A stretch of DNA of 64,000 nucleotides from Candidatus Woesebacteria bacterium (GTDB taxonomy: Bacteria > Patescibacteriota > Microgenomatia > UBA1400 > UBA12028), in NCBI GenBank assembly GCA_040006915.1, contig JBDTWD010000003.1:38023-102022 (forward strand), written 5' to 3'. Under the pieces are notes generated by a model, which was not told the origin of the DNA, did not search any database, and saw nothing but the letters and a program-made list of their open reading frames with translations. Both the position numbers and the translations under genes were made by a program. Of the stretch, positions 4,449 to 63,697 are shown in pieces; within the stretch, counting starts at the first letter, position 1, and each line of letters opens with the position of its first letter.

Positions 4449-4475
4449 ATATGTTTCCTCCATTTAAATAACTAT

Positions 4476-4955: not shown

Positions 4956-4960
4956 AGATT

Positions 4961-5701: not shown

Positions 5702-5708
5702 AGACGAG

Positions 5709-6210: not shown

Positions 6211-6265
6211 ATTCGGGCGTAGTATACCCGAATAGAAGGCGGTTTACAACTGAAAAAGGGAGGGT

Positions 6266-6559: not shown

Positions 6560-6577
6560 ATTCTTTCTAGAAGAGAG

Positions 6578-9716: not shown

Positions 9717-9717
9717 A

Positions 9718-11924: not shown

Positions 11925-12006
11925 GTCTATAGTATAGTACATCCGGCAACGAAAAGCCCCCCGATGTATCACCGAGGGGCTTCCATTTTTCAAAAACTAT
12001 TTTCCC

Positions 12007-23349: not shown

Positions 23350-23363
23350 ATACTCAAAGTATA

Positions 23364-34582: not shown

Positions 34583-34612
34583 CCTCACTTGTGCCAGTGC
34601 CCCTTTTTTTGC
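34583..34612 (+). terminator. possible weak intrinsic terminator after rpsT
   Basis: Short hairpin (CACT-TGTGCC-AGTG) followed by CCCC + a 7-T run. The stem is only 4 bp. Confidence 0.3.
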
Positions 34613-35260
34613 TACGCTGTTACCATGGCGTACAAACCGCAAACTCTTGTTATTCCAAAAATTAACCTTATTCCCCGGGATCCGTTCTATGAAACGACGA
34701 TTGGGAAGATTATGGTCTGGGCGATCCAAGTGGGTCGATACATCATCATTTTTACCGAAATTATTGTTATCATGAGCTTTGCTTCCCGCTTTAAGCTCGA
34801 TCGCGATCTGACAGATCTTACGGCCAAAGTCACACAGAAAAAAGCGATTGTCGAGTCATTTGGTGATATTGAAGCTCGTACTCGTACCATCCAAGATAAA
34901 ATTGCGACAACTCAAAAACTCCTTGCCGACGGAACAGCTATGTTTTATCTGGACAAAGTCACAGCCAGAATCCCGTCTGGAATCGAATTAACTCAACTTA
35001 CTCTTGATCCTGGTACCCTTACTTTTTCAGGAAAAGCTGTAAATTCGAACGTTCTGGCTGCCATGATCGTGGCGTTGCAGCAAGAGCCAGCCTTCACCAG
35101 TGTCTCTGTCGACAAGATCTCTTCAGGACAAGCAAATGATCCAAACGTTTCATTCGCAATTAAACTCACTATTCCACAGAAAGCAGTGGAAGCGAAAGTT
35201 GAAGATGGCAGTACACCAACAACTCCGCCCACATCACCTGATACACCAGTAACACCATAG
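34589..35260 (+). CDS. pilN: type IV pilus assembly protein PilN
   Basis: N-terminal INLIPRD (the PilM-binding INLLP motif), single TM, coiled-coil plus ferredoxin-like periplasmic domain, Pro/Thr C-terminal tail. Confidence 0.7.
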   Translation: MCQCPFFCYAVTMAYKPQTLVIPKINLIPRDPFYETTIGKIMVWAIQVGRYIIIFTEIIVIMSFASRFKLDRDLTDLTAKVTQKKAIVESFGDIEARTRTIQDKIATTQKLLADGTAMFYLDKVTARIPSGIELTQLTLDPGTLTFSGKAVNSNVLAAMIVALQQEPAFTSVSVDKISSGQANDPNVSFAIKLTIPQKAVEAKVEDGSTPTTPPTSPDTPVTP

Positions 35261-35264
35261 ATCT

Positions 35265-35924
35265 ATGCCAATCCAAAGACCATCACTACAACGAACTATT
35301 ATCCAGATGGATTTAAACCGCTTTTATGACAAGCCAGTCACCCGAGTATCTGTGGCATTAGTGCTTTCTCTACTCGCTATTGCTTTTTTCGCACTGGCTG
35401 CGATACGCCCGACTCTACAAACTATGGCAGAGTTATTAAAAGAAATTGATCAGAAAAAAACCTTAGATGAGAAATTGACGCAAAAAATTACGGCACTTAC
35501 TAGTGCTCAACGTCAACTCTCAGAAAAGGAAGCACTATTCCCTGTACTCTCGATCGCAATCCCCTCTAATCCAAACTTTGCTCAGCTCATGACAGTGATC
35601 GAAAAATTAGCAACGGAACGCCAAGTTGAATTTTCTTCGGCACAAATCCAAAAAGTTCCGCTTGAAGGCAAACCACCAAGCGCAACGGCAAAGTATCAAC
35701 TAGTTAGTTATCCTATGACACTTGCCTTCTCGGGATCATATGAGAATTTGATTCTACTCATGCGTGATCTTCAGTCCATTAAACGAATCATTGCAATTGA
35801 TCGATTTGATATTTCTCCTGCGGTACAAAGTGCCCCTACGGAGTTAACCCTTACCCTCGCAATTCGCGCATTCTCGTTTAATCAATTACAAGGAGCTGCT
35901 CCGGCACCGGTGCCTGTTCCGTAA
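35265..35924 (+). CDS. pilO: type IV pilus assembly protein PilO-like
   Basis: Single TM, coiled-coil (KKTLDEKLTQKITALTSAQRQLSEKE), periplasmic domain, Ala/Pro C-terminus, immediately after pilN. Confidence 0.6.
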   Translation: MPIQRPSLQRTIIQMDLNRFYDKPVTRVSVALVLSLLAIAFFALAAIRPTLQTMAELLKEIDQKKTLDEKLTQKITALTSAQRQLSEKEALFPVLSIAIPSNPNFAQLMTVIEKLATERQVEFSSAQIQKVPLEGKPPSATAKYQLVSYPMTLAFSGSYENLILLMRDLQSIKRIIAIDRFDISPAVQSAPTELTLTLAIRAFSFNQLQGAAPAPVPVP

Positions 35925-35931
35925 AATCAGT

Positions 35932-36318
35932 ATGAAAAAAAGATTAACATTTAAACAACTCCTCTTTGAACAACAGATACTGGGAATTTTGCTCTTTTCT
36001 GTATTAGTTGTGTTTTTGTGGGTAGTATCGACTATTTATTTTTCCTACACCAAATCTACACTTACCAGTGAAGATGAAACGGTTGTTATCCCTCTGAGTC
36101 CTATTATTGATGATCGCCCACTACAAGTTTTAAGTAGCCGACGCTGGTGGAGTGACAGTGATCTACAAAGCTTTGCAGTCAGTGTCGTGATACGTGACAG
36201 TAACGGAAAAACGACGACTTCTCAAACCCAAACAGGAGCAGCTTCACCATCTGCTACCCTTGCGCCCACTCCTGTCCCCACACCACTTCCAGCCTCTGGT
36301 TCTGCCCAAACGCAGTAA
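35932..36318 (+). CDS. membrane-anchored protein with Thr/Pro-rich C-terminus (PilP-position, hypothetical)
   Basis: N-terminal TM, small domain, PT-rich tail. 8-nt gap after pilO. Confidence 0.4.
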   Translation: MKKRLTFKQLLFEQQILGILLFSVLVVFLWVVSTIYFSYTKSTLTSEDETVVIPLSPIIDDRPLQVLSSRRWWSDSDLQSFAVSVVIRDSNGKTTTSQTQTGAASPSATLAPTPVPTPLPASGSAQTQ

Positions 36319-36365
36319 GTGTATGGTACTTGTAGTGCAATTAGTGAGCATGATAGCGTAGTACT

Positions 36366-37682
36366 ATGGCCCAATCGTTTCTTTCGACCAAAAGAATTCC
36401 CACCATTGTTGGTATTGTGATTTTGAGTGCTGGCTTGATCGGAGGAATCTTCTTAGCTAACTCTGTTACTACGGGCTTTCTTCCGAGAGCTTCCCCCGAG
36501 TCAACTCCAAAGAACTTAAAAATCACCAATGTCACCGATACCAGTTTTACTGTTTCTTGGGTAACCGATAGCAAGACAACCGGCTACGTAAAGTATGGCC
36601 CCAGCAGTAGTTCAATTAGCAGTGTTACTACTGATGATCGAGATCAAATTGGTGGTAGTGTTGGCCAATTTAAAACACATCATGTTACCCTTCGGGGATT
36701 AACTGCATCCACAACCTATTTCTATAAAATCGGTACTGGTACCAGCGAACTATACGACGATAGTGGCAAACCTTATCAAACAAAAACCACCGTTCCAATC
36801 ACCTCACCTGCAAAAACCTTGTACGGAGAAGTTCTTTCCAGTGATACAACCGGAGCCACTGGCGCCTTAATTTATATTAGTGGAGATTCAATTGCCCCAC
36901 TCTCTACCATTACGCAAAGTGGTGGAAGTTTTGCCTTATCACTAGCGATCGCCCGAGCGAAAGACGGTGTTAGCAGTGCCACTTTTACGGATGACACCAA
37001 GATTTCATTGCTCGTCATTAGTCCGATAGATGATACGACTAGTGTAATCGATGCAACGATTTCTCAAGGTCAGCCCTTCCCTGATATTGTATTAGGTAAG
37101 AATCAAAATCTCACAAGTCCCACACAAACACCCCAACCAGAAGCAGAAAATACTTCCGCTCCAACGCAAAGCAAGTTTACCAGTCAATTACTCTCAGCTC
37201 CGGTCGAGATTCCCGCGTCAGTCAGTGCCAACTTTCTTTCAATAAGTGCACCAACTGATCAATTTGTTTCAACTGTTGCTCGTCCAGTCTTAAGTGGTAC
37301 AGCTTCAAAAAGCGCAACCGTTTCGTTAGCTCTTAAAGGACCATCTACGTTAACAACGAGCACGAAAGCGACTGCAACGGGTGCATGGACATACACACCA
37401 GTAACGAGCTTGAAAAATGGCGCCTATACTCTTACAGCTAGTACCACAATCAGTGGAAAGAAAGAAACACAAAACGTTTCTTTCTCCATTTTGGTCCCCA
37501 CGCCTACGCCCAAAACCAGCACTGCTTCTGCAGTTTTAGGACTGCCATCCACTGAATCAGCAGATTTGGTATCCGGATCCACTGAAATCACCATTTCTTT
37601 TGCTCTCGCTGGTTTGTTATTTATCGGTTCTGGAGCTTTTTTCGCCACAATTCAGTCAAGTGATCACAAAAAAAGAAAATAG
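36366..37682 (+). CDS. surface protein with fibronectin type III-like domain, Ser/Thr-rich regions and C-terminal TM + basic tail
   Basis: NLKITNVTDTSFTVSWVTDS...YVKYG...TTYFYKIG is an FN3/PAP-N-like motif pattern. C-terminal ...TEITISFALAGLLFIGSGAFFATIQSSDHKKRK. Confidence 0.55.
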   Translation: MAQSFLSTKRIPTIVGIVILSAGLIGGIFLANSVTTGFLPRASPESTPKNLKITNVTDTSFTVSWVTDSKTTGYVKYGPSSSSISSVTTDDRDQIGGSVGQFKTHHVTLRGLTASTTYFYKIGTGTSELYDDSGKPYQTKTTVPITSPAKTLYGEVLSSDTTGATGALIYISGDSIAPLSTITQSGGSFALSLAIARAKDGVSSATFTDDTKISLLVISPIDDTTSVIDATISQGQPFPDIVLGKNQNLTSPTQTPQPEAENTSAPTQSKFTSQLLSAPVEIPASVSANFLSISAPTDQFVSTVARPVLSGTASKSATVSLALKGPSTLTTSTKATATGAWTYTPVTSLKNGAYTLTASTTISGKKETQNVSFSILVPTPTPKTSTASAVLGLPSTESADLVSGSTEITISFALAGLLFIGSGAFFATIQSSDHKKRK

Positions 37683-37727
37683 CATCTTGAGATTAGTTGA
37701 AAAGTTAGTTACTGTAGATATTGCATC

Positions 37728-39923
37728 ATGTCAGACGATCAAAAAACACCACCACCATCGCCACTCTCATCCACACAAGGAACTGCAAATTTGGATGATG
37801 TGCTGTCATCGTTGGAAAAACAGTTACCACAAGATTCAGCTACACCAGCGCCTGTTGACCCAGTCTCACCACCTAGTCCAACCCCACCTGTTACCCCTCC
37901 CGAGCCAATGCCTCCACTTACACCTGTAGAAGAAAAACCTGTTGAGCCAGTACCTCCGGTAATTCCACCTGCTCCAGAGCCAATGGCTTCAGCAGCCTCT
38001 ACCCCGACTCCACCGCCAGTTCCAACTTCTTCATCATTTGGTATTGAAGAAAACCACATTGAACCAGTAGCCACACCGGTTCCGGTAGCTACTCCTGAAC
38101 AAAGTCCCGTACTAACTGAAACGCTCAGAGAGCACCCTATGGTTGCGACGCAAACAACAACGACAACTGCTCCTCCTCCAAGAAAAAAAGGATTATTTGG
38201 AATTGATCCTAAGCTTATTGTGGGTGCTGCCGTTGTTTTCATTTTGGCAATTGGATCTGTTGCTGCATATTTGACAATTGGAGCACCAGCAGGTTCTTTG
38301 GATACGAGAAATCAAGCTTCCGGATGTAGTATTGTCTACAATCAAAACACTTTTACACTTACAAATTGTGTGGGATCTGGAACTATCACAAGGTTTAATG
38401 GACCGTCATGTCCAACAACACAGAATAAAGTAAGTGAGGTTCCTGCAACCGATGGTACTATTTCGCCTCAGCCGCCAGCAGGTCAATGTCAACAGGTCGA
38501 TCATAATTTTGGCGGAAATGGACCAGACGGGCTTCCAATTGGGGCTGGTGGAGTCTGTTCCTGTAATAGCGCTCCTTCCCCTACTCCTCAACCACGTGCT
38601 TGTGGTGAAGCATGTACCACAACAGCAAACTGCCGTAACCCAAGTACTGGAGGCTTTCCAGTTGAATGTCGCAACGGCAAATGTCAACTTCCCTTGACTG
38701 GTCCATACGCTTGTCCGGAAGGACAGTCTTCAGGTTCAATTTGTACCTGTGCAGCCAAAGTTCAATGTGGACAGCAATGTGGCCCTGCAGCTGGAGGGAA
38801 GTTGTGTAACCCTGGCAGTGTCTGCGGATTCTTGACTCCTTCAAACGCGTGCAAAGTGAACGGCGTTGATCAAAGTACAAAACAATACTGTATCCCTGTC
38901 AATCCAAATGGTGGATATAGCTCCAAGCGCTGTGACACCACTCCGGCAATCAACTATATTGCTGCTGACTCTTTGGTAAAACCAGACGGAACACAAACAA
39001 ACTTAACCGCTGCGGATGCAGTAGTTGCATGTACCCCAGTCTGTGGAGATAAGATTGTAGCTGGAAATGAAGAGTGTGATGCTGGAAGTGAAAATGGAAA
39101 GCCAGGATCAACTTGTGATGCAACGTGCAAAATGCGCAACGTCTGTGGCGACACTTGCTCTGCCGCTAGTGAATGCAATAAGCATTACGTTACCTTGCGA
39201 TGTAGTGTAGGCGCAACTGGAACAACCGAACGATACTGTGGATTAGATGCAATCGTTGAAAACGGAGTCACCATTGAAGAGAATAGTACCCGCTTCATCA
39301 AACCAGGAATGTGGAGAATCTCAAGTACTGCAGCTTTGAGTGGTGGATCTGAAATATACGACCACGAACAAGGTGCCACAATCTCCTTCTGGACCTCAGC
39401 AACAAATGTAACTCTCGTCTATACCAAAGCTTCAAATCGTGGAACCTTTAATATCCTTGTCGACGGAAAGCAGCAATCGGCAACTATCAATCAAAATGGG
39501 ACAACCACACAATACAAGCAAAATGCACTTATTACGGTTCGAGATGCCAGTATTCCTGAATATGTCTGCACCTCAAATACTTGCCGCCTGTCAACCAGCC
39601 CTGAGAGTCCGACCTGTGATGGGAATATTCCTTCTCCATCACCAACTCCATCGGCTCCACCACTCGCCTGTCTCCGTATTTCCTCTGATAATCCAACTCC
39701 AGTATTGGGAAGCCAAGTGCGATTCACTTGTGGCCTCGTCACTGGTGTTGATCGCTATGAATTCCGCTACAAGATGACATTCAATGGAGTTGATGGAGCT
39801 GGTGGAACACTCGCTGCAACTAATAATTTGTCTGCTCCTCTTACTGTTGATCAACCTGGAGATTATAAAGCACAGTGTCGGCCATGTGTTGGTCAGGCAT
39901 GTGCACCTTGGCAGAATTGGTAA
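37728..39923 (+). CDS. large bitopic Cys-rich protein: Pro-rich N-terminal ~165 aa, one TM, ~540-aa Cys-rich ectodomain including a myxo-type CGD..EECD repeat
   Basis: PPPSP/PVTPPEPMPPLTP N-terminus. TM LIVGAAVVFILAIGSVAAYLTIG. More than 50 Cys. CGDKIVAGNEECDAGSENG matches the myxococcal cysteine-rich repeat pattern. ACGEACTTTANC...C resembles the 8-Cys module. Confidence 0.55.
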   Translation: MSDDQKTPPPSPLSSTQGTANLDDVLSSLEKQLPQDSATPAPVDPVSPPSPTPPVTPPEPMPPLTPVEEKPVEPVPPVIPPAPEPMASAASTPTPPPVPTSSSFGIEENHIEPVATPVPVATPEQSPVLTETLREHPMVATQTTTTTAPPPRKKGLFGIDPKLIVGAAVVFILAIGSVAAYLTIGAPAGSLDTRNQASGCSIVYNQNTFTLTNCVGSGTITRFNGPSCPTTQNKVSEVPATDGTISPQPPAGQCQQVDHNFGGNGPDGLPIGAGGVCSCNSAPSPTPQPRACGEACTTTANCRNPSTGGFPVECRNGKCQLPLTGPYACPEGQSSGSICTCAAKVQCGQQCGPAAGGKLCNPGSVCGFLTPSNACKVNGVDQSTKQYCIPVNPNGGYSSKRCDTTPAINYIAADSLVKPDGTQTNLTAADAVVACTPVCGDKIVAGNEECDAGSENGKPGSTCDATCKMRNVCGDTCSAASECNKHYVTLRCSVGATGTTERYCGLDAIVENGVTIEENSTRFIKPGMWRISSTAALSGGSEIYDHEQGATISFWTSATNVTLVYTKASNRGTFNILVDGKQQSATINQNGTTTQYKQNALITVRDASIPEYVCTSNTCRLSTSPESPTCDGNIPSPSPTPSAPPLACLRISSDNPTPVLGSQVRFTCGLVTGVDRYEFRYKMTFNGVDGAGGTLAATNNLSAPLTVDQPGDYKAQCRPCVGQACAPWQNW

Positions 39924-39925
39924 CT

Positions 39926-40735
39926 ATGAAAAATCGAAAGTCTATCATCGCTGGTTTCATACTTTTTGTCCTAGTAGTGGCTGCTATTGGAGTGGTGATT
40001 ATCACTCGCCGAACTTCAGGAACACAATCTGTTGCTCCAACAGCTCCACAATCACAGCCAGCAGCAACATCTTGTACCCTTTCCTTTACGGTCGAAGGGA
40101 CACCTGGCCCTTCTGAAAGTCCAACCCCAACCCCTTCTGCATCACCGACAGCAAGCCCAAGTCCAACTCCAACCGCTACTCCTGTTGCTCAATGTAACAG
40201 TACTTGTGCGTCCGATAGTGACTGTCCTGCATCTATGACTTGTTCTAGTGGAACGTGTCGTAATCCAGCGTGTACAGACTCAGACAGCTGTGTATGTGCG
40301 ACTGCAACACCTGCTCCTACACCAACACCGACCCCAGGACCATCGTGTAACAGTGAATGCACCACCAATGATCAATGTCCGTCAAACTTAATCTGTGCTT
40401 CAGGTCGCTGCAGAATGCCAGGCTGCACTGCTCTGGATAGCTGTACTTGTGGACCAACCTGTAACTCAACCTGTACAACCAACTCTGACTGTCCAAGTGA
40501 TCTGATCTGTGCCTCGAATCAATGTCGCCGACCTGGATGTACAGCTCTGGATACGTGTTCATGTGGTACACCTGGACCAACAGCTACCCCTACAACTCCA
40601 CCAGTTGTGGTCCAAAGCACGCCTGTACCACAGGAAGTCCTTCCAGTCGCAGGTTCTTCCCTCCCAACAGCAGGGTTAGTAGGAACTGGGATCATCACTA
40701 TCATCATCGGAATCCTAGGGCTACTAGCACTCTAA
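39926..40735 (+). CDS. Cys-rich repeat surface protein with C-terminal LPTAG + TM sorting signal (start MKNRKS at 39926, 2 nt after the upstream gene)
   Basis: N-terminal TM/signal, PT-rich linker, three tandem 8-Cys modules, ...EVLPVAGSSLPTAG-LVGTGIITIIIGILGLLAL. Confidence 0.6.
   Translation: MKNRKSIIAGFILFVLVVAAIGVVIITRRTSGTQSVAPTAPQSQPAATSCTLSFTVEGTPGPSESPTPTPSASPTASPSPTPTATPVAQCNSTCASDSDCPASMTCSSGTCRNPACTDSDSCVCATATPAPTPTPTPGPSCNSECTTNDQCPSNLICASGRCRMPGCTALDSCTCGPTCNSTCTTNSDCPSDLICASNQCRRPGCTALDTCSCGTPGPTATPTTPPVVVQSTPVPQEVLPVAGSSLPTAGLVGTGIITIIIGILGLLAL
40193..40564 (+). repeat. three tandem copies of a ~35-aa 8-Cys module (CNSxCxxxxDCPSxLICASxxCRxPxCTALDSCxCG) encoded in-frame
   Basis: R1 AQCNSTCASDSDCPASMTCSSGTCRNPACTDSDSCVC. 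R2 PSCNSECTTNDQCPSNLICASGRCRMPGCTALDSCTCG. R3 PTCNSTCTTNSDCPSDLICASNQCRRPGCTALDTCSCG. Confidence 0.7.
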
Positions 40736-41115: not shown

Positions 41116-41189
41116 GGGCGTGTGGCGCAATCGGTTAGCGCAGGAAGCTTATACCTTCAAGGTTCCTGGTTCGAGTCCAGGCACGCCCA
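41116..41189 (+). tRNA. tRNA, anticodon loop CUUAUAC -> anticodon UAU (Ile, AUA-reading) by hand folding
   Basis: Acceptor GGGCGTG/CACGCCC, D-arm GCGC-AATCGGTTA-GCGC, anticodon arm GGAAG-CTTATAC-CTTCA (27-43 mismatch), variable AGGTT, T-arm CCTGG-TTCGAGT-CCAGG, discriminator A. CCA not encoded. Confidence 0.75.
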
Positions 41190-41395
41190 CAATCGTTGAA
41201 TAGGTTCATAAATTATGTGTGCTATGCCAGTTCTATCGAATGCGTGATACCATTTATGTAGTAGAAAAATGCATATATATGATTTCTTCTGTTCTCTGCC
41301 TACTTCTCATCAAACTTTAAGGCTTTTATGATATATATGTCTCGCGGTGATTCGACGTATAAACTGGGTGTACAATACACAAGTGAAAAGCAAAT

Positions 41396-42466: not shown

Positions 42467-43233
42467 AACAAAATTTTTCTACACTTTCATTAACACTCGT
42501 TTCCATTGAACTGCTAGAAAGTTCCACATACACTGAATGTGATACAATTCCGTTCTTAATAAATTGTTCTTGAGGTAGTCTCGACTAATTTAAATAAACA
42601 TTACCGAATACCTTTACCTTGTTTTGTGTTTCGTCTCATCGACAAGGTAATACGTCATATTGGGTCGGGGTGTGGGTGGCGTTGGCTCGCCTCTCACACC
42701 CGTAACCTCTCGATCGTATACTCCACCTCGAGGACCTCGAAGTCCCAACTGTCCGGAATCTTCCAATATCTCACCTGGTTTGTAAGTTCTTTTTGTGTTT
42801 GCCATAGCGATCACACTTTCTGCGAGGTACCTCAAGAACAATTCATCAAGCATAAAAAAAGCCACCCTCGGTTTGGTGGCGTGTCTCCTATTCTCCTGTT
42901 ACAGCACAAATTTAGTCACGGCACATATCGATGTTTGGGGTCTTATATTATTAAATCGTTAAAGAACGAAAAACCCCTTAGTACGTTGGCAAGGCTCCAG
43001 GTTATGGAACTTTGGCAAGTATTACCTTGCCGCCGTACTAAAGGGTCTTTCCTGGTTTATACTCCGCTTGCCATCAGAGTTTTTCTCGTAGTACTACTTT
43101 TACCAAAAGAGATAAATGAAATCAAGATTCAAATTCAACACAAGAAGTAATCTAATTGGTGGAAACCGTGTACGCAGTGGTGTTTATAGATAAATAGGTT
43201 CGCACATCGTCCACGAGTGCCCACTAACAGATT

Positions 43234-43829: not shown

Positions 43830-46163
43830 TTAAAGCTTCGCTCGAACGGCTGTTTCTTGTTCCACAATATCTCGTGGACGACCGTATTTAATCCTTGAGA
43901 GCTCACGAATGAGTTCAGCGCGTTTGGGATCCATCAGTTTCTTCTCCCCTTCAATATCGCGCGTTAAGTCCATGCTAAATGGAGGAACAGGCTCGTTGTT
44001 CACAATGGTTTTGATGTAGACGTGATATTTTTCAATATTGGTTAAATCTGTTTCAGAAAATGTTGGCGCAAATTCATGTTGCAGAAAATTTGCATCCGGA
44101 ACACCAACACGGAAAGTTACCATCGAGCCAACGTTGCCAAAGACCGCGTTCTTTACGTCTTCTTCGATCTGAGCCACAAACTGGTTGGCAACAATCAAAT
44201 TTAGTCGGTACTTACGAGCTTCAGAAAGAATGGTAGCGAAATCTTCAGTTGCATAGTTTTGGAACTCATCGACGTAGAGATAGAAATCTCGACGCTGCTC
44301 CATCGGCATATCTTGACGACTCATGGCAGCCGTTAAAATCTTTGGCACCAAAATCAAACCTAAGAACTTGGCATCCTCTTCTCCCAATTTTCCTTTGGAT
44401 AAATTGACCAAGAGAATCTTTCCTTCATCCATAACCTGGCGGAAATTAAAAGCGCTTTGACTTTGGCCAATAATGTTTCGCATTACCTTATTGGTAATGA
44501 ATTTGCCAAATTTCGAAACGATGTAGTCTAGAACTTCAGACTTATGGAAATCACTCGTCTGGGCAATCTGGTCCGTCCAGTAGCGACGCACAACCGGATC
44601 TTTCACTTTCGGAAGCAGTTCCTGCACATACTTTTGATCAGTCAAACAGCGCACGAGTTCAATAAAAGTAGCCCCTGGTTCAGCCATAATAGTTAACATG
44701 GCGTTACGAATGGCATGCTCAAATCGTGGACCGATGATACCGGTTTTGTGTGGATCGTAGAGCTTGTACATTAACGCGATAATTGATCCCACCACAAAAT
44801 GCATCTGTTCTTCGGTCTGCGCTTCCATAATATTTAAACCCATCGGTCGTTCAGTATCAGATGGATTAAAGTAAATAACTTCTTCAGCTCGTTCTGGAGG
44901 GATAAGCTGCATGATATCTTCGACCAACTCTCCATGTGGATCCAAAACTGCCATCCCTTTTCCAGCTCTGATATCCTGCAAAATCATATCTTTTAAGAAT
45001 TCTGATTTTCCGGTACCAGTCTTTCCGACAATATACATGTGACGTTGACGATCTTTTTCCTCAATAAAGATCTCTTTCTTTGTCCCTCGATAATTACTTG
45101 AACCTAAGCGCATTCCAGAAGTTGCGATACTGGCCGGAGCCGGAGCCGACTTAGCTTTAAGCCAATTAATGTGGTGGGTTTCAACCGTTTTATTAGGGAA
45201 ATGCAGAATTGTAGACATCTCTTCAGAATTTAAAACAAATGCCCCGCGATCAAATAACGGCATGTAGCGATAAATGAAATCGACCATGAATAATTGCTTG
45301 AACAAAATTCTCGATCGCTTAAAGCTATTCGTTGGACTACTAAACTGAGCAAAAGCACCAAGAATGTTAGTTAAGTGAGAATTAGCCCTCCTGGCATCAA
45401 TTGATGAGACCACAACACGCAGAGCTACTTTAAATCCTGGTTTGGAAGCTTTGGTCTCAATGGCATCCAGTTTTTTAGGGTCATGATTATAGGAAGCTTT
45501 TTGTGGATCAGATTCTTTTTTCTTCGTATCGGCAACATACTTGCTTCCAGCTCGCTGCCATCCGGGACCAGCGGGCTCTAACACAAATTGCACAATTGCC
45601 CCCTCACCTTCATCCATTTTCGAAAGCGCTGAACTTAAGAGTGATAGTCCATCAGTGGGAAGATCTTTATATACTTTAATTGGTAGATACGTTTGACTGG
45701 CTAGAGTCAAAGCTGCAAACGCAACTTTGCCACCTTCTGAGAAAATATTGTATTCTTCCGCCTCTTCAATCTCTGCAGATGGATAGGCTCCATAAATTTG
45801 TTTTTCAATCAAATCAGTTAACTCCGCTGGAACCGTAACGTAAAAGGCAATGCTTTCGTGTAACGCCACAATTTCAAACGTAAAGTGATCTTCAGGTTTA
45901 AGAATTGATCCCACTCCTTCATTTTTTAAACTGTATAAACCGGCAAACATCTGTTCAGCTGCATCAATTTTTATTTCGTTCTCTTTAGGTAACAATACTT
46001 TGAGAACCTTAAAGCCAAGTGAGTATTTTTCTCTCCCACGGAATCGAAACCATTGGACAACCATATAGACGAGCCCTGCTCCGAAGATCAACGGGATCGC
46101 AAACAAGGCCAGGCTTGTGAGAATTTGGGTAACGACAATTGCAATATCAGTGGTTGGATCCAT
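43830..46163 (-). CDS. VirD4/TraG/TraD-family type IV coupling protein-like membrane ATPase
   Basis: Two N-terminal TM helices, Walker A YIVGKTGTGKSEF, Walker B FYLYVDEFQNY, C-terminal ...SEARKYRLNLIVANQFVAQIEE (TraG-D_C-like). Confidence 0.65.
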   Translation of the reverse strand: MDPTTDIAIVVTQILTSLALFAIPLIFGAGLVYMVVQWFRFRGREKYSLGFKVLKVLLPKENEIKIDAAEQMFAGLYSLKNEGVGSILKPEDHFTFEIVALHESIAFYVTVPAELTDLIEKQIYGAYPSAEIEEAEEYNIFSEGGKVAFAALTLASQTYLPIKVYKDLPTDGLSLLSSALSKMDEGEGAIVQFVLEPAGPGWQRAGSKYVADTKKKESDPQKASYNHDPKKLDAIETKASKPGFKVALRVVVSSIDARRANSHLTNILGAFAQFSSPTNSFKRSRILFKQLFMVDFIYRYMPLFDRGAFVLNSEEMSTILHFPNKTVETHHINWLKAKSAPAPASIATSGMRLGSSNYRGTKKEIFIEEKDRQRHMYIVGKTGTGKSEFLKDMILQDIRAGKGMAVLDPHGELVEDIMQLIPPERAEEVIYFNPSDTERPMGLNIMEAQTEEQMHFVVGSIIALMYKLYDPHKTGIIGPRFEHAIRNAMLTIMAEPGATFIELVRCLTDQKYVQELLPKVKDPVVRRYWTDQIAQTSDFHKSEVLDYIVSKFGKFITNKVMRNIIGQSQSAFNFRQVMDEGKILLVNLSKGKLGEEDAKFLGLILVPKILTAAMSRQDMPMEQRRDFYLYVDEFQNYATEDFATILSEARKYRLNLIVANQFVAQIEEDVKNAVFGNVGSMVTFRVGVPDANFLQHEFAPTFSETDLTNIEKYHVYIKTIVNNEPVPPFSMDLTRDIEGEKKLMDPKRAELIRELSRIKYGRPRDIVEQETAVRAKL

Positions 46164-46644
46164 ATGTTACTTCTGAACCTAATTTTTTTACCAGGCGCTG
46201 ACACCACTGTGCTAACCACCTGACACTCTCGTTAACGTTTGTATGTAGTCCTTGTTTATACTCAACTTCCCCTAGAGGAAGAACAAAAACGGGCTGAGCA
46301 CTATAATGATTGGTTGCCGATTGAGCCGTCTTGTCTGCAACCACAATTTCTGGTGGTTTTTCTCCACTATTATCTCGATTCACTTTTTCCATCCAGCTGG
46401 AAACTTCAGGAGGTAATGGTTCTTTTTCAATTGCGTCGGTACCAACGACTTCAATAGTCGGGGTGGTTTCAGCCGAAATCGGACCTGCCTCTTTGGCTTT
46501 TCCACTCACTTGTGTATCAACCACAGGCTGGGCGCTACTCACTGCATTTACGACTGGTTGCACCATGGCTGGTGCCTGCATAACTGGCTGATCAGTTGGT
46601 GGAACTACTGGTGTTGGTACTTGAGGAATAGCATTCGAATCCAT
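46147..46644 (-). CDS. hypothetical Pro/Val/Gln-rich protein co-transcribed with the coupling-protein-like ATPase
   Basis: 165 aa, 17-nt overlap with the downstream ATPase gene. Confidence 0.45.
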   Translation of the reverse strand: MDSNAIPQVPTPVVPPTDQPVMQAPAMVQPVVNAVSSAQPVVDTQVSGKAKEAGPISAETTPTIEVVGTDAIEKEPLPPEVSSWMEKVNRDNSGEKPPEIVVADKTAQSATNHYSAQPVFVLPLGEVEYKQGLHTNVNESVRWLAQWCQRLVKKLGSEVTYGSNH

Positions 46645-51090: not shown

Positions 51091-51903
51091 ATGAATAAAA
51101 GAGTTCTCATCGGTTTGATTCTCATCATCACAGTTATAGTGGGAATTGGACTCGCTGTCAGTTTATACCTCTCAAGTCAGACGCAAGAGAATCGAAATCA
51201 AGCCTGGACCACAACGCAATCAGCCAACAGTACCTGTGGCGTTGATGGAAAAGCGGTCATCGTCGTCACGTTTTCAAATACAGAACCTGCGAATACTCCT
51301 GCAGACGACATGACTGTCTCTGCTACAGATACCCAGAGCAATCAAAGTGTCAGTATTGGATTAGTCAAAGGTGGGGAAACACTTTCAGCCTCAATTTTGA
51401 CAGGATTTGCTTCGCTAGCGGCTGGAAACGTCCAGCTCCGTCTGACTTGGGCAAATGGAAGAGCAGGAACGGATACTCGAACTGCAAGTTACGGTGCGGT
51501 CTCAACTTGTCTAGTTGCTACCCCCTCCCCAACCCCTGAGATAACCCCTGTTCCCTCACCCACTCCCGAGGTAACACCTAGTCCTACACCAATAACGACA
51601 TCAACTCCTCAGCCAACCAGTACACCGACTAATACTCCTCCCCCCACCTCAGGACCAAGTTGTAACTCACAATGCACCGTCAACACCGATTGTCCCTCAG
51701 ACTTAATCTGTGCATCAAACCAATGTCGCAGACCTGGATGTACTGCCCTTGACTCCTGCAACTGTGGAACACCGGCACCGGCGACACCCACCTCAACTCC
51801 ACAGATATTACCAGTCGCAGGTGGAAGTGGACCGACACTATTTATTCTCACAGCTGGGATGTTTATTCTCATTCTTGGAGTCCTGGGTTTTACGAGACTG
51901 TGA
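51091..51903 (+). CDS. Cys-rich module surface protein with PT-rich linker and C-terminal LPVAGG + TM sorting signal
   Basis: N-terminal TM. TPSPTPEITPVPSPTPEVTPSPTP linker. One 8-Cys module PSCNSQCTVNTDCPSDLICASNQCRRPGCTALDSCNCG (module at 51661-51765). ...QILPVAGGSGPTLFILTAGMFILILGVLGFTRL. Confidence 0.6.
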   Translation: MNKRVLIGLILIITVIVGIGLAVSLYLSSQTQENRNQAWTTTQSANSTCGVDGKAVIVVTFSNTEPANTPADDMTVSATDTQSNQSVSIGLVKGGETLSASILTGFASLAAGNVQLRLTWANGRAGTDTRTASYGAVSTCLVATPSPTPEITPVPSPTPEVTPSPTPITTSTPQPTSTPTNTPPPTSGPSCNSQCTVNTDCPSDLICASNQCRRPGCTALDSCNCGTPAPATPTSTPQILPVAGGSGPTLFILTAGMFILILGVLGFTRL

Positions 51904-60630: not shown

Positions 60631-61116
60631 CTATTCTAGAAACCCTTCCACAATCATATCTTCAGCAAGTTTCTGTGGGATTCCCCGGCTTTCTAGATAA
60701 AACAAATGTTCTTCAGGAATCCTTGAGATACTCGCAGCGTGAGAACATTTCACATCATCAGTCTTGATTTCGAGTTCGGGAATGGCTTCAGCTTTGGCCT
60801 TGTCAGACAGTAATAAAATTCGTTCCTCTAAAAATGACTGGGTGTCTCCACAGTCTTCCTCGATAATGATCCGACCAAAAAACCGAATATGGCTCTTGTC
60901 TTCTGCTACTCCCTTGAGTATCGTTTTGGCTCGCGTGTGAGGAGCTTTATGCACAATCGTTAAGTTAATGTTTATGTCATCATCATTTTTTCCGTGAAAC
61001 ATTCCTACGATTGATATTTCATCTCCAGGATTAAGAATTTCGACTCGATAGTCACCTGATTTGGTCAAGGTAATGTTTTTCATATTAGCCAACTGACCCT
61101 TCCATCTCATGATCAA
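60631..61116 (-). CDS. sufD: SufD-like protein, short form (161 aa, C-terminal SufBD domain only). TTG/alternative start likely.
   Basis: ...ILLLSDKAKAEAIPELEIKTDDVKCSHAASISRIPEEHLFYLESRGIP matches the SufB/SufD C-terminal signature (LEI..DDVKCSHGAT). Confidence 0.7.
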   Translation of the reverse strand: MIMRWKGQLANMKNITLTKSGDYRVEILNPGDEISIVGMFHGKNDDDININLTIVHKAPHTRAKTILKGVAEDKSHIRFFGRIIIEEDCGDTQSFLEERILLLSDKAKAEAIPELEIKTDDVKCSHAASISRIPEEHLFYLESRGIPQKLAEDMIVEGFLE

Positions 61117-63697
61117 TCAATCGATTCATTTCAATTGCATACTCAAGTGGGAGCTTTTTCACAAGATCATTGACGAATCCATTCACAATCATTTTACGAC
61201 TATCTTCTTCCGTTACACCACGACTCATCAAATAAAATAGTTGCTCATCACCAATGCGACTCACTGTAGCTTCATGTTGGATCTCGACCTGATCATTCAT
61301 AATCCGATCAGTGGGATACGTGTCGGAACGTGATTTTCCATCCAAAAGCATGGCATCACACACCACCGTATTTTTACTATGATGCGCCTGGGGTGACACC
61401 ATCACCATTCCCCGGTAACTAGTACGTCCGCCATCTTTACTAATGGATTTAGAAATAATAGTTGAGCTCGTATATGGAGCTAAATGCATTGCTTTGCTTC
61501 CAGTATCTTGATGTTGCCCGGCTCCTGCTAAGGCCATTGATAATGTTTCTCCCTTGGCACCCTTTCCTACTAACAAGAAAGATGGATATTTCATGGTGAG
61601 TTTGGAACCCATGTTAAAGTCTGTCCATACCATTGTTGCTTCTTCCTCAACACGAGCACGTTTAGTGACCAAGTTATAGACATTTTTGTACCAATTCTGG
61701 ATAGTTGTGTACTGACATCTAGCTCCTTTTTTCACGAAAATCTCAACCACTGCAGAATGCAGTGATCCGGAGGAAAATGCCGGAGCGGTACAATTATGAA
61801 CGGCAACTCCCCCTGCTACATAGCTTTCGTCATCTCGAACACTAAAGTTATAGACTGGCAAATTTTTTACAGTTTTTCTTTCAATTGAACGAATAGGAAC
61901 GTACATATACTTTTCATCGATATGATAAAAAGTAGCTCGTTTTTTATTATGTAATCGGTCTTCTACTTTCTCTTCTGCAATTTTTGCAAAATCTGATAGG
62001 TACTGTCCGCCGATCACACACACATACATTGTCTTTCTCCCTTCATACGATCTGCTTTGCCAATTTAAGCTCGATGCGATGTTGAGACGCAAAAGTATTT
62101 GTCGTGCTTGTGAAGCAAGTGTTTTTGAGGTCGTACACAGACGAAATACTTCTTTTAATCCATGTTTATGAGTTTTTTTGTAATAGTTCCCATCACCTCT
62201 ATACCACCCTAACAGCAACTGCTTCTGTTTTTCTAAAGACTCTTTCATCATCCAAAGTGGAATTTTTTTTTCGTCACACTTTGTTCCGAACTGTTTAAAT
62301 AATCGACACAATCTTGTAGAAGAAACTACGACAGAAGTTCCGTGGTTCGTTTTATGTGTTTGCTCACTAATTCTGTTCTCGTCAAAAACAATCCTAATAA
62401 GCTTTTTTACATCATCAATATATTCTCTCTCATTACTGTTAAATGAAAAATTCAGATAATGTCCACTACTAATACTCCCCTCTGCCAGATAATATCCAAC
62501 TAACCGAAAGAAATCCTCTGTAGAAGGGATTGACACTTCTTCAAGAAAGGGGCCATGTCTTCCGGCACCACGTAATACTGGAAAACGAACAGTTTTGTTT
62601 TTGAAAATCTCTCTATCTATAGGAATACAAGCATAGTCGTATTTGGAAATATTTTTTGTTTCTGTCCATGAAGGAATCCATTTACTGTTTCTTTCATTTT
62701 TTCTCTGTCTCTTCACTATAAGAAAAGGATGCTCTTGTGTTGTCTCTATTTTCTCTTTTGGAGAACCAACAAGTTCTATCGTATAGAGGTCTCCAGAATA
62801 CGGCCGTACCTGCGTGTAATACACCTCTTTGTAACGTCCTTCATGTGTTAGAACTAAATCTCCCTTCTCAATTGACTCAATTGCCGCTTCACCCATATCG
62901 GTTTGAATGCGTGTCCCCGCAGTGAAACAGCCCTCCACGTAGTGAACACTCGCTCCTTCATCCACTATGATCAACGTGCGTTCAAATTGACCTGCATTTG
63001 GAGAATTAATACGAAAATACGCTTGGAGAGGCATCTTCACATCCAACCCCTTGGGTACATACACAAACGATCCCCCCGACCAAACAGCAGTATTGAGGGC
63101 CGCAAATTTATTATCTCCGGACGGAATATTTTTGCCAAAGTATTCTTTGATGAGATCAGGATATTGTTTTAGGCCCTCATCCATTGACAAAAAGATTACT
63201 CCTTGTTCCTCCCAGATGTTTTGCAGAGATCCATAGACCACTTCACTATCGTATTGGGCTTTCACACCAGCCAGAACATCTCGTTCTGCCTGAGGAATTC
63301 CCAACTTATCAAAAGTTGCTTTCACGTCAGCCGGAACATCATTCCAAGACTCAACAGACTTATCTGTCGGTTTTAAGTAGTAATGAATTTTATCGTAATC
63401 GATTTCCGACAATACTCCTCCCCAGGTTGGGGTTTGCATGCCTTCAAATATCTCCAAGGCTTTGAGACGGATCTCTAGCATCCACTCTGGTTCCTCTTTA
63501 ATGTGTGAGAGTTCTTCTACTACTCGTTTGGACAATCCAGGTTTAGAAATAAAACTATATTTGTCAGTTGGATACGAAAACCCTGCCGTATATGTCGAGT
63601 CGACTACGGAGTCATCAAACTGCGTCGTATGTTTGTTTGCAAATCTGGACATAATTATAAAACTGAAAGCAGTGTTTTCACTCTCGTTTCTTAGCAC
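61085..63697 (-). CDS. sufB: Fe-S cluster assembly protein SufB interrupted by an in-frame intein (870-aa precursor; ~491-aa mature SufB)
   Basis: N-extein ...LIIVDEGASVHYVEG | C-extein CTAPAFSSGSLHSAVVEI...VVCDAMLLDG...FYLMSRG. Host sequence is SufB-like at both ends. Confidence 0.9.
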   Translation of the reverse strand: MLRNESENTAFSFIIMSRFANKHTTQFDDSVVDSTYTAGFSYPTDKYSFISKPGLSKRVVEELSHIKEEPEWMLEIRLKALEIFEGMQTPTWGGVLSEIDYDKIHYYLKPTDKSVESWNDVPADVKATFDKLGIPQAERDVLAGVKAQYDSEVVYGSLQNIWEEQGVIFLSMDEGLKQYPDLIKEYFGKNIPSGDNKFAALNTAVWSGGSFVYVPKGLDVKMPLQAYFRINSPNAGQFERTLIIVDEGASVHYVEGCFTAGTRIQTDMGEAAIESIEKGDLVLTHEGRYKEVYYTQVRPYSGDLYTIELVGSPKEKIETTQEHPFLIVKRQRKNERNSKWIPSWTETKNISKYDYACIPIDREIFKNKTVRFPVLRGAGRHGPFLEEVSIPSTEDFFRLVGYYLAEGSISSGHYLNFSFNSNEREYIDDVKKLIRIVFDENRISEQTHKTNHGTSVVVSSTRLCRLFKQFGTKCDEKKIPLWMMKESLEKQKQLLLGWYRGDGNYYKKTHKHGLKEVFRLCTTSKTLASQARQILLRLNIASSLNWQSRSYEGRKTMYVCVIGGQYLSDFAKIAEEKVEDRLHNKKRATFYHIDEKYMYVPIRSIERKTVKNLPVYNFSVRDDESYVAGGVAVHNCTAPAFSSGSLHSAVVEIFVKKGARCQYTTIQNWYKNVYNLVTKRARVEEEATMVWTDFNMGSKLTMKYPSFLLVGKGAKGETLSMALAGAGQHQDTGSKAMHLAPYTSSTIISKSISKDGGRTSYRGMVMVSPQAHHSKNTVVCDAMLLDGKSRSDTYPTDRIMNDQVEIQHEATVSRIGDEQLFYLMSRGVTEEDSRKMIVNGFVNDLVKKLPLEYAIEMNRLIDHEMEGSVG
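61793..62929 (-). mobile_element. intein (~379 aa) with LAGLIDADG-type homing endonuclease domain inside sufB
   Basis: Begins CFTAGTRI (Cys1) after host ...YVEG. Ends ...GGVAVHN followed by +1 Cys of host CTAP. Internal LVGYYLAEGS and LLGWYRGDGN are LAGLIDADG-like blocks. Confidence 0.8.

What the first reader, a model, noticed from the sequence alone, without database searches (positions are those of the whole stretch)
43830..46644. Orphan VirD4/TraG-like coupling ATPase with an upstream Pro-rich partner, without other T4SS genes nearby
A 777-aa protein has two N-terminal TM helices, Walker A/B and a TraG-D_C-like C-terminus. It overlaps by 17 nt with an upstream 165-aa Pro/Val/Gln-rich protein.
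No relaxase, VirB4 or other T4SS components are in the window. Neighbours are housekeeping genes (maf, hpt).
In CPR genomes such coupling-protein homologues may serve DNA uptake or effector/protein export rather than conjugation. The small partner could be a substrate or adaptor.
Basis: partly seen in the sequence, partly recalled or inferred. Interest (0 to 1): 0.5.

Follow-up and report, generated by a model that had tools for sequence, protein, structure and literature searches.

The report
CPR coupling ATPase with VirB4-like domain
This is a real, highly conserved two-gene unit of Patescibacteria (CPR): a membrane-anchored type IV coupling-protein ATPase that carries a VirB4-like front domain plus a small partner protein, a chromosomal relative of the coupling protein of Bacillus and haloarchaeal plasmids, whose separation from other secretion genes is already published.

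Summary
ORF 43830-46163(-) encodes 777 aa, ORF 46147-46644(-) encodes 165 aa, they overlap by 17 nt, and no T4SS gene lies in the 64-kb housekeeping window.

- **One correction:** the N-terminus has one hydrophobic helix, not two.
- **ATPase type:** by sequence it is T4CP-type (TrwB_AAD_bind; profile hits to TrwB and DotL), not FtsK, HerA or VirB4.
- **Distribution:** thousands of Patescibacteria clusters, ~70% identical across Microgenomatia, always in chromosomal housekeeping context.
- **Partner:** a small ORF sits directly upstream in most of 165 related loci. The partners of the two subfamilies are not detectably homologous.
- **Relatives elsewhere:** collinear full-length homologues (26% identity, E 4e-61) head Tcp-type conjugation operons next to a relaxase on Bacillus plasmids. 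The N-domain also occurs on haloarchaeal plasmids and in large Bacillus phages.

T4CP homologues lying apart from virB4 in Patescibacteria were reported in 2025 (PMC12102498). I found no paper on the VirB4-like domain, the partner or the plasmid link. Most likely it is a domesticated Gram-positive/archaeal-type coupling ATPase serving the chromosomal T4SS in trans; a T4SS-independent role is a serious rival.

The parts
46147..46644 (-). Partner gene, 165 aa, with no TM segment and no Pfam or NCBIfam match. Its 3' end overlaps the ATPase start by 17 nt.
   Evidence: A homologue lies directly upstream on the same strand in 66/83 loci by BLAST and 74/83 by iterated HMM. The gap to the ATPase is below 0 or at most 30 nt in 49/63 loci.
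46420..46644 (-). Partner N-terminal half (aa 1-75): low-complexity, Pro/Val/Gln/Ala/Thr/Ser-rich (68%), fast-evolving, presumed disordered.
   Evidence: There is no conservation across loci, whereas the C-terminal half is conserved.
46150..46419 (-). Partner conserved C-terminal region (aa 76-165), with motifs LPPEVxxWMxKV ... PVxxLP ... SxRWLxxWxxxxxKK (an amphipathic Trp-containing helix).
43830..46163 (-). 777-aa ATPase of the DUF8128 + T4CP family.
   Evidence: The identical protein P0001 carries precomputed PF26449, PF10412 and PF01935, and NCBI names it 'type IV secretion system DNA-binding domain-containing protein'.
46047..46151 (-). N-terminal membrane anchor (aa 5-39): one hydrophobic helix followed by RFRGREK, so the rest of the protein is inferred to be cytoplasmic by the positive-inside rule.
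   Evidence: An N-terminal hydrophobic segment is present in 44/49 full-length representatives.
45129..46019 (-). DUF8128 domain (aa 49-345) with the VirB4 N-terminal-domain fold.
43959..45113 (-). T4CP-type nucleotide-binding domain with an inserted all-alpha domain (aa 351-735).
   Evidence: TrwB_AAD_bind covers 367-686. Profile against PDB: TrwB 1.3e-7, DotL 1.9e-6. Foldseek to Cagbeta, DotL and TrwB gives target-normalised TM-score (TMt) 0.49-0.58.
45003..45026 (-). Walker A, GKTGTGKS (aa 380-387).
44265..44282 (-). Walker B, YLYVDE (aa 628-633).
44418..44825 (-). All-alpha insertion (aa ~447-582), in the position of the T4CP all-alpha domain.
   Evidence: Helices 451-580 in the model (this region has only moderate confidence). 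TrwB_AAD_bind alignment.
43833..43955 (-). C-terminal helical tail (aa 737-777), conserved (LSRxKYG motif).
42861..42880 (-). Terminator-like hairpin downstream of the phosphoribosyltransferase gene. It could end a maf-partner-ATPase-PRT transcript (gaps of 52 nt, -17 nt and 5 nt).
   Evidence: This is a consensus match only. The flanking maf and PRT genes are not conserved neighbours in other lineages.

Best explanation
The locus encodes the Patescibacteria chromosomal version of a Gram-positive/archaeal-type type IV coupling protein (T4CP), together with a lineage-specific small partner.

Shown:
- The 777-aa protein has four parts in order: a single-pass membrane anchor; a ~300-residue domain (Pfam DUF8128) with the fold of the VirB4 N-terminal domain; a T4CP-type P-loop domain with an all-alpha insertion and intact Walker A/B motifs; and a short helical tail.
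- It is a collinear full-length homologue of the ATPase that sits next to the relaxase at the head of Tcp-type conjugation operons on Bacillus plasmids.
- In Patescibacteria it is vertically conserved, sits in housekeeping context, and is almost always preceded by a tightly coupled small ORF.

Inferred:
- It forms a membrane-associated ATPase oligomer, as other T4CPs do.
- Its VirB4-like N-domain docks it onto membrane T4SS subunits, the surface that VirB3 and VirB8 tails bind in R388.
- Its nucleotide-binding and all-alpha domains select and energise a substrate.
- It therefore acts in trans as the substrate receptor or motor of the relaxase-less chromosomal Patescibacteria T4SS, which is encoded elsewhere near dnaA.
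- The small partner (disordered N-half, conserved helical C-half) would be an adaptor or regulator of the ATPase, by analogy with CagZ-Cagbeta or the DotL adaptors.
For: - **T4CP identity:** Pfam TrwB_AAD_bind scores 39.6 bits. A ~850-aa sister subfamily also passes T4SS-DNA_transf (41.7 bits) and TraG-D_C (26.1 bits). The family profile hits TrwB (1.3e-7) and DotL (1.9e-6) in the PDB and hits neither VirB4 nor FtsK. Foldseek matches the ATPase half to Cagbeta, DotL and TrwB.
- **VirB4-like N-domain:**
- **Conjugative homologue:** BLASTP to the NZ_CP154917.1 885-aa protein gives 26% identity over 728 columns, E 4e-61. The N-domain profile aligns to its residues 3-312 with probability 98.7%. 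Its operon contains Replic_Relax, TcpC, TcpE and an AAA_10 VirB4-type ATPase. The N-domain is also found on 40 Bacillaceae and haloarchaeal plasmids.
- **Conservation and context:** more than 6,000 clusters; at least 593 species genomes matched two strict peptide patterns; only the partner is universally linked, in 83 + 82 loci.
- **Literature:** the Patescibacteria T4SS is chromosomal, of the MPF-FATA T4SS class and relaxase-less, with T4CP homologues far from virB4 (PMC12102498). VirB3 and VirB8 bind the VirB4 N-domain (PMC9259494).
Against: - No T4SS gene lies within 10 kb in any of 165 loci.
- T4CP homologues occur in more Patescibacteria genomes (2,918 of 3,035) than VirB4 does (2,417), and at least one Woesebacteria genome scored VirB4-negative still has the T4CP hit.
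- The T4CP homologue of Ca. S. epibionticum was not essential although the T4SS genes were. Whether that protein is a DUF8128 member was not tested.
- About 70% identity across orders is unusually high for a T4SS component.
- Partner binding, oligomeric state and docking are not shown.
- The ATPase half of the full-length model has only moderate confidence (pLDDT 69 overall).
- The link between the paper's 't4cp1' hits and this family rests on pattern, not on matched accessions.
Confidence: 0.55

Rival explanations
1. Exapted, T4SS-independent housekeeping translocase. The domesticated coupling ATPase and its partner would work on their own at the membrane, for example moving DNA or protein during division, DNA uptake or envelope biogenesis, and would no longer serve a type IV channel.
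For: - It is more widespread than VirB4 and is present in VirB4-negative assemblies.
- It is never linked to T4SS genes.
- It shows very high conservation and constant length.
- Its context is housekeeping operons: maf/PRT here, dnaX/cysS/corA in the sister subfamily.
- The authors of PMC12102498 themselves raise exaptation.
Against: - VirB4-negative calls may reflect incomplete MAGs.
- Retention of a VirB4-type docking domain and of all T4CP motifs argues for continued work with T4SS-like partners.
- No alternative channel is encoded nearby.
- No functional data exist.
Confidence: 0.28
2. A second VirB4-like assembly ATPase. Because it has a VirB4-type N-domain, it could act like VirB4, energising machine or pilus assembly, rather than as a substrate receptor.
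For: - Over the full length the best structural matches are TrwK/VirB4 (E 4e-17, ~850 columns).
- VirB2 pilin arrays are abundant in Microgenomatia.
Against: - VirB4 signatures fail: AAA_10 scores 13.6 bits against a cut-off of 27.5, and TIGR00929 scores 12 bits against 643.
- The family profile finds no VirB4 in the PDB.
- Microgenomatia genomes list a separate canonical VirB4.
- On the Bacillus plasmid the homologue coexists with an AAA_10 VirB4 and sits next to the relaxase, which is the T4CP position.
Confidence: 0.1
3. Remnant of an integrated conjugative or mobile element: a leftover coupling-protein gene from a decayed ICE or plasmid.
For: The closest non-CPR relatives are plasmid-borne. 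No intact T4SS lies nearby.
Against: - All catalytic motifs are invariant.
- There are thousands of orthologues of constant length with lineage-congruent identity and synteny.
- There is no integrase, relaxase or repeat context, and the GC equals that of the flanks.
- The neighbours are housekeeping genes.
Confidence: 0.03
4. HerA/FtsK-like or anti-phage defence ATPase.
For: - DUF87 ('HerA central domain') scores 31.8 bits.
- PADLOC mad8 scores 61 bits and HerA models ~29 bits.
- Foldseek also matches HerA.
Against: - The DUF87 and HerA matches cover mainly the Walker A region.
- FtsK_SpoIIIE is below its cut-off (18.7 bits against 24).
- There is no HAS-barrel (the HerA-specific N-terminal beta-barrel); the N-domain is VirB4-like.
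- There is no NurA, Sir2 or methylase partner.
- It behaves as a near-universal core gene rather than a patchy island gene.
Confidence: 0.03

Closest known systems
'DUF87 domain-containing protein' at the head of Tcp-type conjugation operons on Bacillaceae plasmids (e.g. NZ_CP154917.1, 885 aa), with related proteins on haloarchaeal plasmids
   Same: - Collinear full-length homology: 26% identity over 728 columns, E 4e-61.
- The same DUF8128-like N-domain (hhalign probability 98.7%), followed by the P-loop and all-alpha domains.
   Different: - The plasmid protein lies next to a Replic_Relax relaxase, TcpC, TcpE and an AAA_10 VirB4.
- It has no N-terminal membrane helix and no adjacent small upstream ORF.
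- It carries an acidic C-terminal tail.
- The CPR protein is chromosomal, apart from any T4SS gene, membrane-anchored and partnered.
Canonical VirD4/TrwB/TraG coupling proteins (TrwB of R388, Cagbeta, DotL)
   Same: - P-loop nucleotide-binding domain with an all-alpha insertion.
- Walker A/B motifs and T4CP Pfam signatures.
- An N-terminal membrane anchor.
- For Cagbeta-CagZ and DotL, small partner or adaptor proteins (the CagZ and DotL roles are from my own knowledge and the title of PDB entry 8dol).
   Different: - Canonical T4CPs have about 60-100 residues between the TM helices and Walker A. Here a ~300-residue VirB4-type domain intervenes.
- There is one hydrophobic helix rather than two.
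- There is no linked relaxase or T4SS.
- NCBIfam T4CP equivalog models score far below their cut-offs.
VirB4 (TrwK of R388)
   Same: - The same two-domain layout.
- In R388 this domain is the binding surface for VirB3 and the VirB8 tails.
   Different: - Only 7-9% identity in the N-domain.
- The ATPase sequence signatures are T4CP-type, not VirB4-type.
- A separate VirB4 exists in related genomes.
T4CP homologues of Patescibacteria reported by Quinonero-Coronel et al. 2025 (PMC12102498)
   Same: Most likely the same proteins. The paper reports one 't4cp1' hit per Microgenomatia genome, not near virB4, and raises exaptation as a possibility.
   Different: - The paper does not describe the N-terminal domain, the conserved upstream partner or the plasmid and phage homologues.
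- The identity of their hits with this family is inferred here, not shown by accession.

Membership tests
Type IV coupling protein (VirD4/TraG/TrwB) | P-loop NTPase domain with Walker A GxxGxGK[ST] and Walker B hhhhDE | tested here: met
   GKTGTGKS at 380-387 and YLYVDE at 628-633, invariant in alignments A1 and A2.
Type IV coupling protein (VirD4/TraG/TrwB) | Passes T4CP-specific sequence models | tested here: met
   Pfam TrwB_AAD_bind scores 39.6 bits against a cut-off of 20.5; TraG-D_C scores 21.5 against 22, just under. Sister subfamily member P0312 passes TrwB_AAD_bind, T4SS-DNA_transf and TraG-D_C. Profile against PDB: TrwB and DotL are best. Caveat: the NCBIfam TraD, CD1115 and TrbC equivalog models score far below their cut-offs.
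Type IV coupling protein (VirD4/TraG/TrwB) | All-alpha domain inserted in the nucleotide-binding domain | tested here: inconclusive
   An all-helical stretch at ~451-580 lies between core strands in the AF2 model, and the TrwB_AAD_bind alignment spans it. Model confidence there is moderate, and VirB4 also has a helical insertion at that place.
Type IV coupling protein (VirD4/TraG/TrwB) | N-terminal transmembrane anchor | tested here: met
   One hydrophobic helix at aa 5-39, not the two helices typical of VirD4.
Type IV coupling protein (VirD4/TraG/TrwB) | Genetic linkage to a relaxase and/or VirB4-based T4SS | tested here: not met
   No linkage in the window or in 165 related loci. The feature is met by the Bacillus plasmid homologue.
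Type IV coupling protein (VirD4/TraG/TrwB) | Recruits substrates to a type IV channel | not testable with these tools
   This needs genetics or biochemistry.
VirB4 | VirB4-type N-terminal domain | tested here: met
   [not shown]
VirB4 | VirB4-type ATPase sequence signature (AAA_10, TIGR00929) | tested here: not met
   AAA_10 scores 13.6 bits against 27.5. TIGR00929 scores 12 bits against 643. The family profile finds no VirB4 chain in the PDB.
VirB4 | Encoded with VirB3, VirB6 or VirB8 homologues | tested here: not met
   and the window annotation.
Pfam DUF8128 (PF26449) | Match to the family model | tested here: met
   PF26449 is precomputed on the identical protein P0001 and on all listed relatives. 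The model is absent from the local Pfam copy, so it was not rescored.
FtsK/SpoIIIE | FtsK_SpoIIIE motor domain above threshold | tested here: not met
   18.7 bits against a cut-off of 24, and only residues 365-395. There is no FtsK chain in the profile-against-PDB search.
HerA | HAS-barrel plus HerA ATPase, with a NurA-type or defence partner | tested here: not met
   DUF87 covers only residues 371-456. The N-domain is VirB4-like, not a HAS-barrel. No such partner lies in the flanks.

The most novel reading that the evidence does not exclude
DUF8128 proteins would be a distinct, ancient branch of the VirB4/VirD4 superfamily that kept the two-domain VirB4 layout while having a T4CP-type motor. 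That would imply that coupling proteins descend from a VirB4-like two-domain ancestor. In Patescibacteria this motor, fitted with its own membrane anchor and a dedicated disordered partner, would have become a near-universal core machine that no longer depends on conjugation and possibly not on the T4SS. It could, for example, drive macromolecule exchange at the epibiont-host interface.
Probability: 0.25. Interest if true: 0.75.

Novelty: new variant of a known kind. Interest (0 to 1): 0.5.

Why it matters
The Patescibacteria T4SS is essential for epibiotic growth in the one cultivated model, yet it has no relaxase, no recognised coupling protein in its cluster and no known substrate (PMC10633639, PMC12102498).

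This locus defines the best candidate for the missing substrate-side ATPase:
- it is a near-universal gene;
- its homologue on Bacillus plasmids sits in the coupling-protein position;
- it has a domain suited to dock on VirB3- or VirB8-type subunits;
- it has a dedicated small partner that could be an adaptor, regulator or substrate.

This makes the question 'what does the CPR T4SS move, and is its T4CP exapted?' testable through complex prediction, pull-downs and mutants.

The VirB4-like N-domain in a T4CP clade that spans Patescibacteria, Bacillaceae plasmids, haloarchaeal plasmids and large Bacillus phages also bears on how VirB4 and VirD4 diverged.

Tried and rejected
- **Accession link to the paper:** I tried to tie the paper's 't4cp1' entries to this family through matching accessions (KKU01594, KKT31014, KKT98537, KKU23125). 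The stored copy of Table S3 is cut before those genomes.
- **Source record:** an exact look-up of the window protein's contig found nothing on record, so the rest of the 142-kb contig and genome could not be searched for VirB4.
- **afdb50 fold search:** the library was not available.
- **Partner annotation:** no Pfam or NCBIfam match, even at E 5.
- **Partner homology:** the partner families of the two ATPase subfamilies are not detectably homologous (hhalign probability 0.4%), so 'one conserved partner family' is rejected in favour of 'a positionally conserved partner of similar design'.
- **Fusion evidence:** only 1 of 150 representatives (P0165) carries a partner-like segment fused to the ATPase (E 2e-4). 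That is too thin to count as proof of interaction.
- **Defence reading:** considered because of the PADLOC mad8 and HerA hits, and rejected on context and distribution.
- **Family outside Patescibacteria:** the 'TM6' record CP011212.1 shares Pacebacteria-type synteny, so its title looks like a labelling issue.
- **Literature on DUF8128:** no paper mentions it.
Full report
**1. Observation**

ORF 43830..46163(-) encodes 777 aa, ORF 46147..46644(-) encodes 165 aa, and they overlap by 17 nt. Walker A (GKTGTGKS, aa 380-387) and Walker B (YLYVDE, aa 628-633) are present and invariant among relatives.

Pfam gives TrwB_AAD_bind at 39.6 bits (cut-off 20.5) over residues 367-686, DUF87 at 31.8 bits and TraG-D_C at 21.5 bits, just below its cut-off of 22. 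FtsK_SpoIIIE is below threshold. NCBIfam gives only weak TraD, CD1115 and TrbC hits, far below the curated cut-offs.

The upstream protein is Val/Pro/Gln-rich, has no hydrophobic segment and matches no family.

One detail is wrong. The N-terminus has a single continuous hydrophobic stretch (aa ~5-39), which AlphaFold models as one helix, not two TM helices.

**2. Context in the window**

The window is chromosomal housekeeping DNA of a Woesebacteria-type Patescibacterium. It contains:
- the 5' end of a 16S rRNA gene (read on the minus strand) and one tRNA;
- HrcA, GrpE, DnaK and DnaJ, LepA, MurJ, an ATP-dependent DNA ligase, RecF, Fpg, the SufBD/SufS/NifU genes and AdoHcy hydrolase;
- glycosyltransferases, PilN/PilO, Maf and a phosphoribosyltransferase.

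No ORF of 120 aa or more matches a T4SS, relaxase or VirB4 family. GC of the two genes (0.427) equals that of the window (0.423). The local 'orphan' description is therefore correct. Pilin-sized ORFs and the rest of the genome were not examined.

**3. Family and conservation**

The protein has more than 6,000 homologous 90%-identity clusters. Nearly all are ~777 aa, and they remain ~70% identical across Woesebacteria, Pacebacteria, Levybacteria, Gottesmanbacteria and other Microgenomatia. All carry a precomputed N-terminal Pfam domain, PF26449 = DUF8128.

Two strict peptide patterns alone found the gene in at least 593 species-level genomes. The N-terminal 350 residues have 2,027 representative clusters at E <= 0.001. 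The domain always lies at the N-terminus, mostly in proteins of 790-870 aa, and a few members have very long disordered C-terminal tails.

A sister subfamily of ~850 aa (N-domain 31-39% identical, ATPase ~50%) additionally passes the canonical T4CP models T4SS-DNA_transf and TraG-D_C.

**4. The partner**

- A homologue of the small ORF lies directly upstream on the same strand in 66 loci by BLAST and 74 by iterated HMM.
- Most of the remaining loci have a divergent small ORF in the same place.
- The genes overlap or are within 30 nt in 49 of 63 clustered cases.
- Only this gene is universally linked. The other neighbours are lineage-specific housekeeping genes, and no T4SS gene appears.

The N-half is unconserved and low-complexity. 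The C-terminal ~90 residues carry conserved motifs ending in an amphipathic SxRWLxxW helix.

The ~850-aa subfamily shows the same arrangement. A ~170-aa unannotated ORF lies directly upstream in about 60 of 74 informative metagenome loci, next to dnaX, cysS and corA. However, the two partner families are not detectably homologous (hhalign probability 0.4%). What is conserved is the position and the design: a disordered N-half and a helical, Trp-containing C-half.

One representative, P0165, has a partner-like segment fused in place of the membrane helix. This is suggestive but is a single case.

**5. What the N-terminal domain is**

A full-length AF2 model (pLDDT 69) matched TrwK/VirB4 of R388 best over ~850 columns (E 4e-17). 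The ATPase half alone matched Cagbeta, DotL, TrwB and HerA.

I then modelled residues 42-352 alone, using a 30-sequence alignment spanning 31-92% identity. The model has pLDDT 88.3 and pTM 0.87.
- Foldseek agreed independently: its top 13 hits are all TrwK chains at E ~1e-7, and everything else is above 1e-3.

DUF8128 is therefore a VirB4 N-terminal-domain fold. In R388 that domain (residues 15-400) is what VirB3 wraps around and what the VirB8 tails bind (PMC9259494).

**6. What the ATPase is**

By sequence it is a T4CP, not a VirB4, FtsK or HerA.
- It passes T4CP Pfam models.
- The family profile hits TrwB (1.3e-7) and DotL (1.9e-6) in the PDB. HerA is marginal, and no VirB4 or FtsK chain is hit.
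- AAA_10 and TIGR00929, the VirB4 models, are far below threshold.
- PADLOC's mad8 (61 bits) and HerA models hit the ATPase core, but context and distribution do not fit a defence island.

**7. Relatives outside Patescibacteria**

This was the unexpected result. tblastn against plasmids found 51 records that cover at least 80% of the protein. On B. subtilis plasmid NZ_CP154917.1 the homologue is an 885-aa 'DUF87 domain-containing protein'.
- It is 26% identical over 728 collinear columns, E 4e-61.
- The DUF8128 profile aligns to its residues 3-312 with probability 98.7%, E 1.6e-16.
- It is the first gene of a conjugation operon. A Replic_Relax relaxase-family gene follows directly, then TcpC, TcpE and an 847-aa AAA_10 (VirB4-type) ATPase. 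That is the coupling-protein position.
- It lacks the membrane helix and has no adjacent small upstream ORF.

The N-domain alone is found on 40 plasmids of Bacillaceae and haloarchaea. Full-length relatives occur in large Bacillus phages: phage G gp156, next to a 'VirB-like' gp155, and SPO1/CP-51-type phages.

This Firmicutes-plus-Archaea distribution fits the published conclusion that the Patescibacteria T4SS derives from the monoderm/archaeal MPF-FATA lineage.

**8. What was already known**

Quinonero-Coronel et al. 2025 report the following:
- 5,713 T4CP homologues in 2,918 of 3,035 Patescibacteria genomes, only 148 of them near virB4.
- VirB4 in 2,417 genomes, usually near dnaA with TrsD, VirB3, VirB6 and VirB2 arrays.
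- Almost no relaxases.
- A non-essential T4CP homologue in Ca. S. epibionticum, so that exaptation 'cannot be ruled out'.

Their Table S3 lists exactly one 't4cp1' hit, always at 75.45% profile coverage, in each Woesebacteria or Levybacteria genome I could read. The hit lies far from the virB4 cluster, and it is also present in a genome scored VirB4-negative. I infer that these hits are this family, but I could not match accessions.

Wang et al. 2023 state that the Saccharibacteria T4SS cluster lacks recognisable coupling and relaxase proteins. No paper in the library mentions DUF8128.

**9. Mechanism**

Shown:
- The domain order: TM helix, VirB4-type N-domain, T4CP motor, helical tail.
- Intact catalytic motifs.
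- Homology to a plasmid protein in the coupling-protein position.
- Vertical conservation, and tight coupling to a small partner gene.

Inferred:
- The protein is a membrane-bound T4CP that docks through its VirB4-like domain onto VirB3/VirB8-type subunits of the chromosomal T4SS encoded elsewhere.
- It uses its motor and all-alpha domain to select and drive a substrate. With relaxases absent, that substrate is probably protein rather than relaxase-piloted DNA.
- The small partner acts as adaptor or regulator. I know of precedents in CagZ-Cagbeta and the DotL adaptors.

I put about 0.9 on the identity statements and about 0.45-0.55 on the in-trans T4SS mechanism.

The main rival (~0.28) is a T4SS-independent, exapted role. 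It is favoured by the wider distribution than VirB4, the unusually high conservation and the housekeeping context. A VirB4-like assembly role (~0.1), an ICE remnant and a defence or HerA role (~0.03 each) are less likely, for the reasons given under the rival explanations.

**10. Verdict**

The finding is real. The analysis adds three things that I could not find described:
- the VirB4-fold N-domain that defines this T4CP clade;
- a positionally conserved small partner in Patescibacteria;
- the direct homology to the coupling-position ATPase of Bacillus and haloarchaeal plasmids and large Bacillus phages.

I rate it a new variant of a known kind, of moderate interest.

Noticed in passing
window 61085-63697 (-), with 60631-61116 (-): The SufB/SufD-type gene is interrupted by an intein with a LAGLIDADG homing-endonuclease domain (SUFBD_core, Hint_2, Intein_splicing, LAGLIDADG_3). 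A second SufBD-core ORF lies next to it.
   Followed up: no
window 41116-41190 (+): tRNA-Ile with a TAT anticodon. From my own knowledge, most bacteria instead read AUA with a lysidine-modified CAU tRNA, so this is worth a look in a CPR genome.
   Followed up: no
window 34589-40735 (+): PilN and PilO genes are followed by a run of large predicted surface proteins: Pur_ac_phosph_N/fn3/Big_13, a 731-aa DUF4215-like protein and a Dumpy-DPY-module protein. A second DPY-module protein lies at 51091-51903.
   Followed up: no
window 7697-11993: A cluster of two ATP-grasp proteins (ATPgrasp_ST type), a MATCAP-like peptidase and a 7TM_transglut membrane protein. It resembles a peptide-ligase or modification module.
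   Followed up: no
window 21649-24464 (-): An archaeal/eukaryotic-type ATP-dependent DNA ligase lies next to a Fic-domain protein. The same ligase is a syntenic neighbour of the DUF8128 gene in Pacebacteria-type genomes.
   Followed up: partly
L168 (Bacillus phage G, JN638751.1) 3240-7382; L167 (phage SPO1L1) 5806-8529: Large Bacillus phages encode full-length relatives of the DUF8128-T4CP ATPase, 20-24% identical over ~85-89% of the query. In phage G the gene lies directly after a gene annotated 'type IV secretory pathway protein; VirB-like'. Their function in phages is unknown.
   Followed up: partly
P0165, P0223, P0266, P0192 (representative proteins): P0165 has a partner-like Pro-rich segment with an 'RTLRWLLVWLERQ' motif fused where other members have the membrane helix. 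P0223 (1,422 aa), P0266 (1,706 aa) and P0192 (1,024 aa) carry very long Pro/Ser/Gln-rich disordered C-terminal tails; those of P0223 and P0266 end in a shared 'GEV(Y/F)(I/V)D..GNV' motif.
   Followed up: partly
L084 12582-13745 and equivalents in L085-L165: In the ~850-aa subfamily two further small ORFs recur just downstream on the same strand. One is a ~180-aa protein with an N-terminal TM helix and a methyltransferase-like GxGxG motif (13 loci). The other is a ~210-aa soluble protein with the conserved motif 'ANYASKSKLVEGD' (40 loci).
   Followed up: no
L004-L083 record titles; L057 (CP011212.1): Many MAG records that carry this Patescibacteria gene are titled 'uncultured Pseudomonadales' or 'Gammaproteobacteria', and one complete genome is titled 'candidate division TM6'. 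L057 shares Pacebacteria-type synteny around the gene, so these titles look like labelling problems, not signs of the family in other phyla.
   Followed up: partly
[not shown]
   Followed up: no
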